Source: Escherichia coli
GTDB lineage: Bacteria; Pseudomonadota; Gammaproteobacteria; Enterobacterales; Enterobacteriaceae
NCBI RefSeq assembly: GCF_030384885.1
Contig: NZ_CP128613.1
Length of the DNA: 64,000 bases
Direction: 5' to 3' (one strand)
The position numbers are program-made. Positions 33,001-36,000 of the stretch are shown here, one piece after another. Every line of letters starts with the position of its first letter. Positions within the stretch are counted from its first letter, which is position 1.

Positions 33001-36000
33001 GTTGAAATAGGGGTAAACAGACATTCAGAAATGAATGACGGTAATAAATAAAGTTAATGATGATAGCGGGAGATATTCTAGTTGCGAGTGAAGGTTTTGT
33101 TTTGACATTCAGTGCTGTCAAATACTTAAGAATAAGTTATTGATTTTAACCTTGAATTATTATTGCTTGATGTTAGGTGCTTATTTCGCCATTCCGCAAT
33201 AATCTTAAAAAGTTCCCTTGTATTTACATTCTGAAACATCTATAGCGATAAATGAAACATCTTAAAAGTTTTAGTATCATATTCGTGTTGGATTATTCTG
33301 CATTTTTGGGGAGAATGGACTTGCCGACTGATTAATGAGGGTTAATCAGTATGCAGTGGCATAAAAAAGCAAATAAAGGCATATAACAGAGGGTTAATAA
33401 CATGAAAGTTAAAGTACTGTCCCTCCTGGTCCCAGCTCTGCTGGTAGCAGGCGCAGCAAACGCTGCTGAAGTTTACAACAAAGACGGCAACAAATTAGAT
33501 CTGTACGGTAAAGTAGACGGCCTGCACTATTTCTCTGACAACAAGTCAGAAGACGGCGACCAGACCTATGTACGTCTTGGTTTCAAAGGCGAAACTCAGG
33601 TTACTGACCAGCTGACCGGTTACGGCCAGTGGGAATATCAGATCCAGGGCAATACCTCTGAAGACAACAAAGAAAACTCCTGGACCCGTGTGGCATTCGC
33701 AGGTCTGAAATTCCAGGATGTAGGTTCTTTCGACTACGGTCGTAACTACGGCGTTGTTTACGACGTAACTTCCTGGACCGACGTACTGCCAGAATTCGGT
33801 GGCGACACCTACGGTTCTGACAACTTCATGCAGCAGCGTGGTAACGGCTTCGCGACCTACCGTAACACCGACTTCTTCGGTCTGGTTGACGGTCTGAACT
33901 TTGCTGTTCAGTACCAGGGCAAAAACGGTAGCGTAAGCGGCGAAGGCATGACCAACAACGGTCGTAGCGCTCTGCGTCAGAACGGCGACGGTGTCGGTGG
34001 TTCTATCACTTATGATTACGAAGGCTTCGGTATCGGTGCTGCAGTTTCCAGCTCCAAACGTACTGATGATCAGAACAGCATTGCTTACATCGGTAACGGC
34101 GACCGTGCTGAAACCTACACTGGTGGTCTGAAATACGACGCTAACAACATCTACCTGGCTGCTCAGTACACCCAGACTTACAACGCAACTCGCGTAGGTA
34201 CTAACAACTGGGGTTGGGCGAACAAAGCGCAGAACTTCGAAGTTGTTGCTCAGTACCAGTTCGACTTTGGTCTGCGTCCGTCCCTGGCTTACCTGCAGTC
34301 TAAAGGTAAAAACCTGGGTCGTGGCTACGACGATGAAGACCTGCTGAAATATGTTGATGTTGGTGCGACCTACTACTTCAACAAAAACATGTCCACCTAC
34401 GTTGACTACAAAATCAACCTGCTGGACGACAACCAGTTCACTCGCGCTGCTGGCATCAACACCGATGACATCGTAGCTCTGGGTCTGGTTTACCAGTTCT
34501 AATCTCGATTGATATCGAACAAAGGGCCTGCGGGCCCTTTTTTCATTGTTTTCAGCGTACAAACTCAGTTTTTTGGTGTACTCTTGCGACCGTTCGCATG
34601 AGGATAATCACGTATGGAAATAAGCTTTACCCGCGTGGCACTGCTGGCTGCCGCGCTCTTCTTTGTTGGTTGCGATCAAAAACCACAACCCGCCAAAACC
34701 CACGCTATTGAAGTTACCGTTCTCGAAGGCAAAACCATGGGTACCTTCTGGCGTGCCAGCATTCCGGGCATTGACGCCAAACGCAGTGCCGAACTTAAAG
34801 AAAAGATTCAGACCCAGCTGGACGCTGACGATCAGCTGCTTTCGACCTATAAAAAAGATTCCGCGCTGATGCGCTTTAACGACTCGCAAAGTTTGTCGCC
34901 GTGGCCGGTAAGTGAAGCGATGGCCGATATCGTCACCACCTCGCTGCGCATTGGCGCAAGGACCGATGGTGCGATGGATATAACCGTCGGGCCGCTGGTG
35001 AATCTGTGGGGCTTTGGCCCGGAACAACAGCCGGTTCAAATTCCGAGCCAGGAACAAATTGATGCGATGAAAGCCAAAACCGGCTTACAGCACCTGACGG
35101 TCATTAATCAGTCGCATCAGCAATATCTGCAAAAAGACCTGCCGGATTTATATGTCGATCTCTCCACCGTCGGTGAAGGTTATGCGGCGGATCACCTGGC
35201 ACGCTTGATGGAGCAGGAAGGGATTTCCCGCTATCTGGTGTCGGTGGGCGGCGCGCTGAACAGCCGTGGTATGAACGGTGAAGGCCAGCCGTGGCGGGTA
35301 GCGATTCAAAAACCAACTGATAAAGAAAACGCGGTTCAGGCCGTGGTGGATATCAACGGTCATGGCATTAGCACCTCTGGCAGCTACCGTAACTATTACG
35401 AACTGGACGGCAAACGTCTTTCCCATGTTATCGATCCGCAAACCGGGCGTCCCATCGAACACAATCTGGTATCCGTGACGGTGATTGCCCCGACGGCGCT
35501 GGAAGCCGATGCCTGGGATACTGGCTTAATGGTACTGGGGCCGGAGAAAGCCAAAGAGGTTGTTCGCCGGGAAGGGCTGGCGGTTTACATGATCACCAAA
35601 GAAGGCGATAGCTTTAAAACCTGGATGTCGCCGCAGTTTAAAAGCTTCCTGGTGAGCGAAAAAAATTAAAGCGCAAGATTGTTGGTTTTTGCGTGATGGT
35701 GACCGGGCAGACTAAAGGCTATCCTTAACCAGGGAGCTGATGATGAAAAACGCCACATGCTTAACTGACGATCAACGCTGGCAATCTGTCTTAGCCCGCG
35801 ACCCGAACGCCGACGGCGAATTCGTTTTCGCCGTGCGCACCACGGGTATCTTTTGCCGTCCGTCTTGCCGAGCCAGACATGCCTTGCGGGAAAATGTCTC
35901 CTTCTACGCAAATGCCAGCGAGGCACTCGCCGCCGGATTTCGCCCCTGCAAACGTTGTCAGCCAGACAAAGCCAATCCCCGGCAACATCGCCTTGATAAA

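What the first reader, a model, noticed from the sequence alone, without database searches (positions are those of the whole stretch)
33402..34502. ompC appears to be a surface-loop variant allele
The signal peptide, strand regions and C-terminus look like canonical OmpC, but several stretches (around ...[26 protein letters not shown]..., ...[18 protein letters not shown]..., ...[24 protein letters not shown]...) differ from the K-12 protein as I remember it, and the product is one residue shorter. If these map to extracellular loops, as is usual for OmpC polymorphism, this is an antigenic/phage-receptor variant. The comparison is from memory.
Basis: partly seen in the sequence, partly recalled or inferred. 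Interest (0 to 1): 0.4.

Follow-up and report, generated by a model that had tools for sequence, protein, structure and literature searches.

The report
Known surface-loop allele of OmpC porin
This is an intact, ordinary ompC porin gene whose differences from the laboratory K-12 version sit almost entirely in the outward-facing loops; the exact allele is already in the databases and was catalogued in a 2016 survey, so it is expected natural variation, not a discovery.

Summary
Window 33402-34502 (+) encodes a 366-aa OmpC at the usual locus (rcsD, micF, ompC, apbE, ada). Against K-12 OmpC (367 aa) it has 22 substitutions and three indels: +D in L2, -GFTS in L4, +NN in L6. On a confident AlphaFold model (pLDDT 91.8; TM 0.97 to PDB 2J1N), 17 of the 22 substitutions and all three indels fall in surface loops L1, L2, L4, L5, L6 and L8 (binomial p 3e-6). 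Five conservative changes lie in strands. The signal peptide, constriction loop L3 and periplasmic turns are unchanged. The promoter, 5' UTR and terminator are essentially K-12.

It is not new. The protein is RefSeq WP_000865605.1. Beck et al. 2016 list it as L4 type c5 and L5 type a5, from strain TW10509. It sits in one near-clonal lineage of Escherichia cryptic clade I, including stx1 strain 2013C-4282, which is 99.98% identical to the window. Most differences from K-12 are common polymorphisms. Only S189, I227 and the L6 TNNW segment are rare. Divergence is sharply confined to ompC and is mosaic, which points to allele exchange.

Phage or CDI receptor consequences are inferred, not tested. 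The allele lacks the L4 Phe implicated in T4 adsorption and the L7 GVIN that phage PP01 needs.

The parts
33402..34502 (+). ompC coding sequence, 366 codons plus stop. Identical to RefSeq protein WP_000865605.1.
   Evidence: ORF. NCBIfam 'porin OmpC' NF007841 scores 748 bits against a cutoff of 484, while the OmpF and PhoE models fall below their cutoffs. Pfam Porin_1 matches at E = 5e-142. Annotated as ompC in 2013C-4282.
33402..33464 (+). Signal peptide [21 protein letters not shown], identical to K-12.
   Evidence: Alignment. The PDB mature chains start at query residue 22.
33537..33566 (+). Surface loop L1 (residues 46-55), with D49S and V50E relative to K-12.
   Evidence: DSSP on the AF2 model. 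Differences.
33648..33677 (+). Surface loop L2 (residues 83-92): [11 protein letters not shown] against K-12 GNSAE-NENNS, four substitutions and one inserted Asp.
   Evidence: The same L2 is found in 13 of 84 cluster representatives.
33750..33836 (+). Constriction loop L3 (residues 117-145), identical to K-12.
33918..33989 (+). Surface loop L4 (residues 173-196): short form [18 protein letters not shown], type c5 in Beck et al. It lacks the K-12 GFTS segment. S189 is rare.
   Evidence: S189 occurs in 2 of 84 representatives.
34059..34103 (+). Surface loop L5 (residues 220-234): [15 protein letters not shown], type a5 in Beck et al. I227 is rare.
34182..34223 (+). Surface loop L6 (residues 261-274): [11 protein letters not shown] against K-12 VGS--LGWANK. 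It has a two-residue insertion and a new Trp, and is the rarest feature of the allele.
   Evidence: N268/N269 in 2 of 84, W270 in 3 of 84. No species-representative genome encodes TNNWGWANK or [11 protein letters not shown].
34311..34334 (+). Surface loop L7 (residues 304-311): short K-12-type NLGRGYDD, type 'a' in Beck et al., with no GVIN/GVVA insertion.
34419..34469 (+). Surface loop L8 (residues 340-356), with D349A and N356D relative to K-12.
33233..33401 (+). ompC core promoter, 5' UTR and ribosome-binding site, 100% identical to K-12. Two substitutions lie just upstream at 33223 and 33233, in the OmpR-box region.
   Evidence: Alignment. The positions of the OmpR boxes and of the -35/-10 elements are from memory of the K-12 literature and were not tested.
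34521..34548 (+). Intrinsic terminator of ompC (GC stem followed by a T run). The whole 111-nt spacer to apbE is identical to K-12.
32975..33068 (-). micF small RNA, transcribed divergently upstream of ompC.
   Evidence: Rfam RF00033 scores 116.8 bits against a gathering score of 79. One substitution relative to K-12 lies in the terminator stem.

Best explanation
The feature is a functional ompC gene. It encodes the osmoregulated, trimeric, 16-stranded general-diffusion porin OmpC, in an allelic form that is already catalogued: WP_000865605.1, with Beck L4-c5 / L5-a5 / L7-a and an L6 TNNW insertion. The barrel, the L3 constriction, the periplasmic turns, the signal peptide and the regulatory DNA are K-12-like. 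Solute diffusion and EnvZ/OmpR/micF-linked regulation are therefore expected to be unchanged (inferred).

What differs is the outward-facing surface formed by L1, L2, L4, L5, L6 and L8. This is the part of OmpC that phage tail fibres, CdiA effectors and antibodies recognise, and it is known to be hypervariable and modular among E. coli strains. The allele is a mosaic. Its 5' 500 nt are identical to the HS-type allele, while the L5-L8 part is distinct. It sits in flanks that related strains share while carrying quite different ompC alleles. It was therefore acquired or retained by ompC-localised homologous recombination or long-lived polymorphism, not by simple vertical divergence from K-12.

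It is carried by one near-clonal lineage of Escherichia cryptic clade I. The predicted consequence is an altered spectrum of OmpC-dependent phage and CDI recognition. This is inferred and untested. For example, the allele lacks the L4 Phe implicated in T4 adsorption and the L7 GVIN that PP01 needs.
For: Identity and locus.

Differences from K-12 and their position. 17 of 22 substitutions and all three indels are in surface loops (p = 2.8e-6). None are in L3, the turns or the signal peptide.

Regulatory DNA is identical to K-12 from 33234 to the start codon, and across the terminator and spacer.

Hypervariability of the loops relative to K-12: dN is 0.124 and dS is 0.326 in the loops. The rest of ompC has dN 0.010 and dS 0.109. 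The flanking genes have dN 0.004-0.014 and dS 0.07-0.16.

Mosaic and exchange: there are 0 mismatches to the HS and EC14 alleles over 33400-33899, then 16 per 100 nt around L6. R32_14_1F, N96 and clade-I strain EC42405 share near-identical flanks (0-5 mismatches per 250 nt) but differ by 11-32 per 250 nt inside ompC.

Already known: same accession WP_000865605.1, listed as L4 c5 and L5 a5 in Beck et al. 2016 S2 Table. The exact protein is on 639 contigs.

Lineage: 26 contigs read all carry near-identical flanks, about 4 differences in 9.1 kb. 2013C-4282 is a clade I stx1 strain (PMC10100065) and TW10509 is clade I (PMC7716201).

Literature on function: OmpC L4/L5 determine CdiA-EC536 recognition, and E. 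coli has at least 220 OmpC variants with modular loops (PMC5056734). PP01 gp38 needs L7 GVIN and contacts L5 Ser225/Pro226 (PMC12892980). T4 cannot use O157 OmpC, and an L4 Phe substitution abolishes adsorption (PMC5221442).
Against: No functional test was possible. Expression, trimerisation, conductance and receptor activity are all inferred. Pairwise dN/dS stays below 1 even in the loops (0.38), so positive selection is not formally demonstrated. High dS in the loops fits old or imported polymorphism as well as it fits selection. Loop boundaries come from a predicted model, not a crystal structure of this allele. The T4 L4-Phe result is cited in the paper as unpublished data. No donor for the L6 segment was found.
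Confidence: 0.9

Rival explanations
1. Plain vertical divergence. The differences simply reflect the evolutionary distance between a cryptic clade I genome and K-12, with relaxed constraint on the loops and no allele exchange or receptor-driven selection.
For: The strain belongs to a divergent lineage. Flanking DNA is at least 99% identical in only 2 of 5,426 complete genomes and about 97% identical in most. The non-loop part of ompC has dS 0.109, similar to flanking genes at 0.07-0.16. Pairwise dN/dS is below 1 everywhere.
Against: Strains with near-identical flanks (R32_14_1F, N96, clade-I EC42405) carry very different ompC alleles, and the divergence starts and stops at the gene borders. 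The first 500 nt of the gene are identical to the allele of E. coli HS, whose flanks differ. Loop dS is three times the dS of the rest of the gene.
Confidence: 0.08
2. A permeability or antibiotic-resistance variant. The changes would alter the channel, as in clinical OmpC mutants or OmpK36 L3 insertions, rather than the surface.
For: Clinical OmpC variants with altered antibiotic transport exist (PDB 2XE1-2XE5 and 2XG6). The window also carries GyrA S83L, so the strain has been under quinolone selection.
Against: L3 (residues 117-145) and all other non-loop residues are identical to K-12, apart from five conservative strand substitutions (M57V, G213A, I215V, A281V, I314L). These five are common polymorphisms, present in 10-40 of 84 representatives. 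There is no insertion in L3.
Confidence: 0.03
3. A non-functional or mis-assigned gene: a decaying ompC, or a paralogue or prophage porin (OmpF, PhoE, OmpN, NmpC) rather than OmpC.
For: None beyond the sequence differences themselves.
Against: The ORF is full length with an intact signal peptide and C-terminal YQF. Promoter, UTR and terminator are K-12-like. The locus is the canonical rcsD-micF-ompC-apbE arrangement. It scores above the OmpC cutoff and below the OmpF and PhoE cutoffs. The model superposes on OmpC structures. The sequence is conserved exactly in hundreds of assemblies.
Confidence: 0.01

Closest known systems
E. coli K-12 OmpC (b2215, P06996; PDB 2J1N)
   Same: Same locus, same regulation DNA, and identical signal peptide, L3, L7, turns and C-terminus. 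341 of 366 residues are identical. The predicted fold superposes at TM 0.97 and rmsd 1.2 A.
   Different: 22 substitutions and 3 indels: +D in L2, -GFTS in L4, +NN and L>W in L6. 17 of the substitutions are in surface loops, and the product is one residue shorter.
E. coli O157:H7 EDL933 OmpC (PDB 9WCB; receptor of phages PP01 and A8)
   Same: This is the best PDB sequence match, at 704 bits. It has the same short L4 ([17 protein letters not shown]), the same b9 (GAAV) and the same TDDQNS start of L5.
   Different: O157 has L5 SPLY (here SIAY), K-12-like L1, L2 and L6, and the L7 GVIN insertion that PP01 requires (PMC12892980). That insertion is absent here.
E. coli HS / EC14-type ompC alleles (WP_000865597.1, WP_087905729.1)
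   Same: The first 500 nt are identical, covering L1, b2, L2, L3 and most of L4. These are the closest other alleles among complete genomes, at 96-97% DNA identity.
   Different: L4 residue 189 (G against S), plus L5, L6, b12 and L8. For HS, also the L7 GVVA insertion.
The OmpC loop-cassette polymorphism described by Beck et al. 2016 (PLoS Pathog, PMC5056734)
   Same: This exact protein accession is the representative of their L4 type c5 and L5 type a5, and its L7 is their type a. It shows the same pattern of modular, recombining loops.
   Different: That survey scored only L4, L5 and L7. This allele also differs from K-12 in L1, L2, L6 and L8, and its L6 insertion is rare.

Membership tests
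OmpC (enterobacterial osmoporin; NCBIfam NF007841, Pfam PF00267 Porin_1) | Sequence scores above the curated OmpC family cutoff and better than the paralogue models. | tested here: met
   NF007841 scores 748.2 bits against a cutoff of 484. OmpF scores 502 (cutoff 583) and PhoE 466 (cutoff 599). Pfam Porin_1 matches at E = 5e-142.
OmpC (enterobacterial osmoporin; NCBIfam NF007841, Pfam PF00267 Porin_1) | 16-stranded beta-barrel with eight long loops on one side, short turns on the other, and L3 folded in as the constriction. | tested here: met
   The AF2 model has pLDDT 91.8 and 16 strands with alternating long loops and short turns. Foldseek against 2J1N gives TM 0.97 and rmsd 1.2 A. This is a predicted structure, not an experimental one.
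OmpC (enterobacterial osmoporin; NCBIfam NF007841, Pfam PF00267 Porin_1) | Chromosomal position between rcsD/micF and apbE, with micF transcribed divergently. | tested here: met
OmpC (enterobacterial osmoporin; NCBIfam NF007841, Pfam PF00267 Porin_1) | Cleavable Sec signal peptide and a C-terminal aromatic residue (the BAM beta-signal). | tested here: met
   Residues 1-21 and the C-terminal LGLVYQF are identical to K-12. PDB mature chains begin at residue 22.
OmpC (enterobacterial osmoporin; NCBIfam NF007841, Pfam PF00267 Porin_1) | Conserved constriction zone (L3 PEFGGD segment and barrel-wall basic residues). | tested here: met
   L3 and all barrel residues are identical to K-12 except M57V, G213A, I215V, A281V and I314L. 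Which residues line the pore is from memory of the 2J1N literature.
OmpC (enterobacterial osmoporin; NCBIfam NF007841, Pfam PF00267 Porin_1) | Trimer formation, diffusion-channel activity and EnvZ/OmpR osmoregulation. | not testable with these tools
   Indirect evidence only: promoter, UTR and terminator DNA are identical or near-identical to K-12.
Beck et al. 2016 OmpC loop types (L4 c5 / L5 a5 / L7 a) | Exact loop sequences [36 protein letters not shown] and NLG--RGYDD. | tested here: met
   The loop strings and accession WP_000865605.1 were found in their S2 Table. The same accession is annotated in 2013C-4282.
K-12-type OmpC as phage T4 gp37 receptor | L4 with the GFTS segment. Substituting the L4 Phe abolishes T4 adsorption, and O157 OmpC, which lacks the segment, is not used by T4 (PMC5221442). 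| tested here: not met
   GFTS is deleted in this allele. The literature statement is and rests partly on unpublished data cited there. Actual T4 adsorption was not tested.
O157-type OmpC as phage PP01 gp38 receptor | A four-residue GVIN insertion in L7, plus L5 Ser225-Pro226 (PMC12892980). | tested here: not met
   L7 is the short K-12 form and L5 has Ser-Ile instead of Ser-Pro. Actual PP01 adsorption was not tested.

The most novel reading that the evidence does not exclude
The three rare features are S189 in L4, I227 in L5, and above all the L6 T-N-N-W segment, which adds two residues and a surface tryptophan. They occur in only 2-6 of 84 OmpC cluster representatives and in no species-representative genome. 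They could be recent, lineage-private adaptive changes in a clonal, stx1-carrying cryptic clade I lineage, letting it escape a particular OmpC-targeting phage, CDI system or antibody. That would make L6 a recognition determinant that earlier surveys, which scored only L4, L5 and L7, overlooked.
Probability: 0.2. Interest if true: 0.3.

Novelty: already known. Interest (0 to 1): 0.1.

Why it matters
It matters little beyond annotation. It is a clean, tool-verified example of a well-documented rule: E. coli OmpC varies by shuffling surface-loop cassettes while the barrel, pore and regulation stay fixed. Its practical value is modest. OmpC-dependent phages or CDI systems characterised on K-12 or O157 cannot be assumed to recognise this clade I lineage, which includes Shiga-toxin strains. 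This is relevant for phage typing or therapy and for surface-antigen design. The rare L6 insertion is a cheap candidate for a loop-swap experiment.

Tried and rejected
(1) The first AlphaFold run, using a shallow alignment of OmpC proteins at least 89% identical (A1), gave an unusable model (pLDDT 30). I replaced it with a run on a diverse 79-sequence alignment built from 50%-identity representatives.

(2) I looked for a donor of the L6 segment. Two degenerate-codon scans of 100,044 species-representative genomes, for TNNWGWANK and for [11 protein letters not shown], found nothing. No inter-species origin could be shown.

(3) Pairwise Nei-Gojobori dN/dS as a test of positive selection gave 0.38 in the loops. 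That is above the 0.09 elsewhere but below 1, so it is not proof of positive selection.

(4) I considered a pore or antibiotic-permeability variant. I rejected it because L3 and the barrel are K-12-like.

(5) I considered whether the allele simply marks cryptic clade I. I rejected that because clade-I strain EC42405, and other strains sharing these flanks, carry different alleles. All sampled carriers of this allele have near-identical flanks, so it marks one clone.

(6) A literature search for the 9WCB (A8 gpJ-OmpC) paper, to find loop contacts, did not find it.

Full report
**What is there.** Window 33402..34502 (+) is a 366-codon ORF.
- NCBIfam places it in 'porin OmpC' at 748 bits against a cutoff of 484. 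The OmpF and PhoE models score below their cutoffs. Pfam gives Porin_1.
- The neighbourhood is the canonical K-12 one: rcsB and rcsD on the minus strand; micF at 32975..33068 on the minus strand (Rfam 116.8 bits); then ompC, apbE, ada, alkB and yojI.
- The whole window is core chromosome (nrdAB, gyrA, ato, rcs, nap, ccm). Over the first 50 kb, the part compared, it is 99.984% identical to Escherichia coli strain 2013C-4282.

**Check of the observation.** I took K-12 MG1655 ompC from NC_000913 and aligned the two proteins.
- The alignment has 341 identities, 22 substitutions and three indel events: +D88, -GFTS after residue 181, and +N268/N269.
- The signal peptide, residues 92-176 including all of L3, and the C-terminus are identical to K-12.

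**Mapping onto structure.**
- A first AlphaFold run with a shallow alignment failed (pLDDT 30).
- I then collected diverse porins from the 50%-identity representative library and built a 79-sequence alignment. The resulting model had mean pLDDT 91.8.
- That model superposes on the K-12 OmpC crystal structure 2J1N at TM 0.97 and rmsd 1.2 A. It superposes similarly on the other OmpC and OmpK36 structures.
- DSSP on the model gives 16 strands. The long connections are L1 46-55, L2 83-92, L3 117-145, L4 173-196, L5 220-234, L6 261-274, L7 304-311 and L8 340-356.
- These agree with published assignments: GFTS in loop 4, residues 225-226 in loop 5, and residues 303-306 in loop 7 (PMC12892980).
- 17 of the 22 substitutions and all three indels lie in surface loops L1, L2, L4, L5, L6 and L8. 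These loops hold 98 of the 345 mature residues (binomial p = 2.8e-6).
- The other five changes are conservative substitutions in strands: M57V, G213A, I215V, A281V and I314L.
- Nothing differs in L3, the periplasmic turns or the signal peptide.

**Regulation.**
- The 169 nt upstream of the start codon (core promoter, 5' UTR, RBS) are identical to K-12. So are the terminator and the whole 111-nt spacer to apbE.
- Two substitutions lie further upstream, at 33223 and 33233.
- There is no sign of inactivation.

**How unusual is the allele?**
- At the DNA level it is 100% identical in only 2 of 5,426 complete E. coli genomes (2013C-4282 and 2020CK-00188). The next best match is 97.2%, and most genomes are at 90-95%.
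- The protein carries RefSeq accession WP_000865605.1. The exact sequence is on record on 639 contigs as 'MULTISPECIES: porin OmpC [Escherichia]'.
- Beck et al. 2016 surveyed 2,707 E. coli OmpC proteins and found at least 220 distinct sequences, with modular L4, L5 and L7 cassettes (PMC5056734). Their S2 Table lists this very accession, from strain TW10509, as the representative of L4 type c5 and L5 type a5. Its L7 is their K-12 type 'a'.
- TW10509 is a cryptic clade I strain (PMC7716201). 2013C-4282 is a completely sequenced, stx1-positive clade I strain (PMC10100065).
- All 26 contigs read that encode the exact protein have essentially the same flanks, about 4 differences in 9.1 kb. The allele therefore marks one near-clonal lineage.

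**'Variant' is relative to K-12.**
- Most window states are common among 84 OmpC cluster representatives at least 90.5% identical. Several are the majority state while K-12 is the minority: the short L4 without GFTS in 60-64 of 84, S177 in 70, V178 in 59, and D223 in 50.
- The rare states are S189 (2 of 84), I227 (2 of 84), T267 (6 of 84), the N268/N269 insertion (2 of 84) and W270 (3 of 84).
- No species-representative genome among 100,044 encodes TNNWGWANK, or even [11 protein letters not shown]. The L6 form has no identifiable foreign donor.

**Evolutionary pattern.**
- Relative to K-12, the surface loops have dN 0.124 and dS 0.326. The rest of ompC has dN 0.010 and dS 0.109.
- Flanking genes rcsD, apbE, ada and alkB have dN 0.004-0.014 and dS 0.07-0.16.
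- The gene is a mosaic. Positions 33400-33899 are identical to the HS and EC14 alleles, while the L6 region differs from them by 16 per 100 nt.
- Strains R32_14_1F, N96 and clade-I EC42405 have flanks almost identical to the window (0-5 differences per 250 nt on both sides). Inside ompC they differ by 11-32 per 250 nt, and they carry other loop cassettes, for example O157-like L5 and L7.
- This sharply bounded divergence is what ompC-localised allele exchange or long-lived balanced polymorphism produces. It argues against simple vertical divergence.
- Pairwise dN/dS is below 1 even in the loops (0.38). Positive selection is therefore plausible but not demonstrated here.

**Mechanism and consequences.**
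- Shown here: an intact OmpC with a K-12-like barrel, constriction and regulatory DNA, and a remodelled outer surface.
- Inferred from established knowledge: it forms the usual trimeric diffusion pore under EnvZ/OmpR control.
- Inferred from the literature on surface recognition:
  - T4 cannot use O157 OmpC, and a substitution of the Phe in L4 abolishes T4 adsorption (PMC5221442, partly unpublished data). This allele lacks that GFTS segment.
  - PP01 gp38 requires the L7 GVIN insertion and contacts L5 Ser225/Pro226 (PMC12892980). This allele has the short L7 and Ser-Ile in L5.
  - CdiA-EC536 recognition depends on L4 and L5 (PMC5056734). The c5/a5 combination was not among the alleles tested there.
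- All of these are predictions, not results.

**Verdict.** The feature is an already catalogued natural OmpC allele that shows the well-known loop-cassette polymorphism. Interest is low. The only mildly novel element is the rare L6 TNNW insertion, in a loop that earlier surveys did not score.

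Noticed in passing
window 6978-6980 (gyrA codon 83; gyrA is 6732-9359 +): The window encodes GyrA Leu83 ([11 protein letters not shown]), the classic S83L quinolone-resistance substitution. The otherwise near-identical genome 2013C-4282 has C instead of T at 6979, giving Ser83. This is one of only 8 differences in 50 kb.
   Followed up: partly
window 47938-48561 (ccmA): ccmA is an intact ORF in the window. It is annotated as frameshifted in 2013C-4282, which lacks the G at window position 48468. The window therefore comes from a close relative, or from a corrected assembly, of that strain.
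   Followed up: partly
window 4647-5607: Only a frameshifted, truncated remnant remains where many other E. coli genomes have the large yfaL/ehaC AIDA-I-type autotransporter gene between nrdA and ubiG (annotation; full-length yfaL in other genomes).
   Followed up: no
window 32986 (micF terminator stem, minus strand): There is a single substitution in micF relative to K-12, and it falls in the terminator hairpin. The rest of micF is identical.
   Followed up: no
window 1667-9359 versus 33402-38000: Strain 2020CK-00188 is 100% identical to the window across ompC-apbE-ada-alkB, but is not among the genomes at 99% identity or above for the nrdA-gyrA segment. The two carriers of this ompC allele therefore differ elsewhere in the window. 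This could be recombination, or the variable yfaL region.
   Followed up: no
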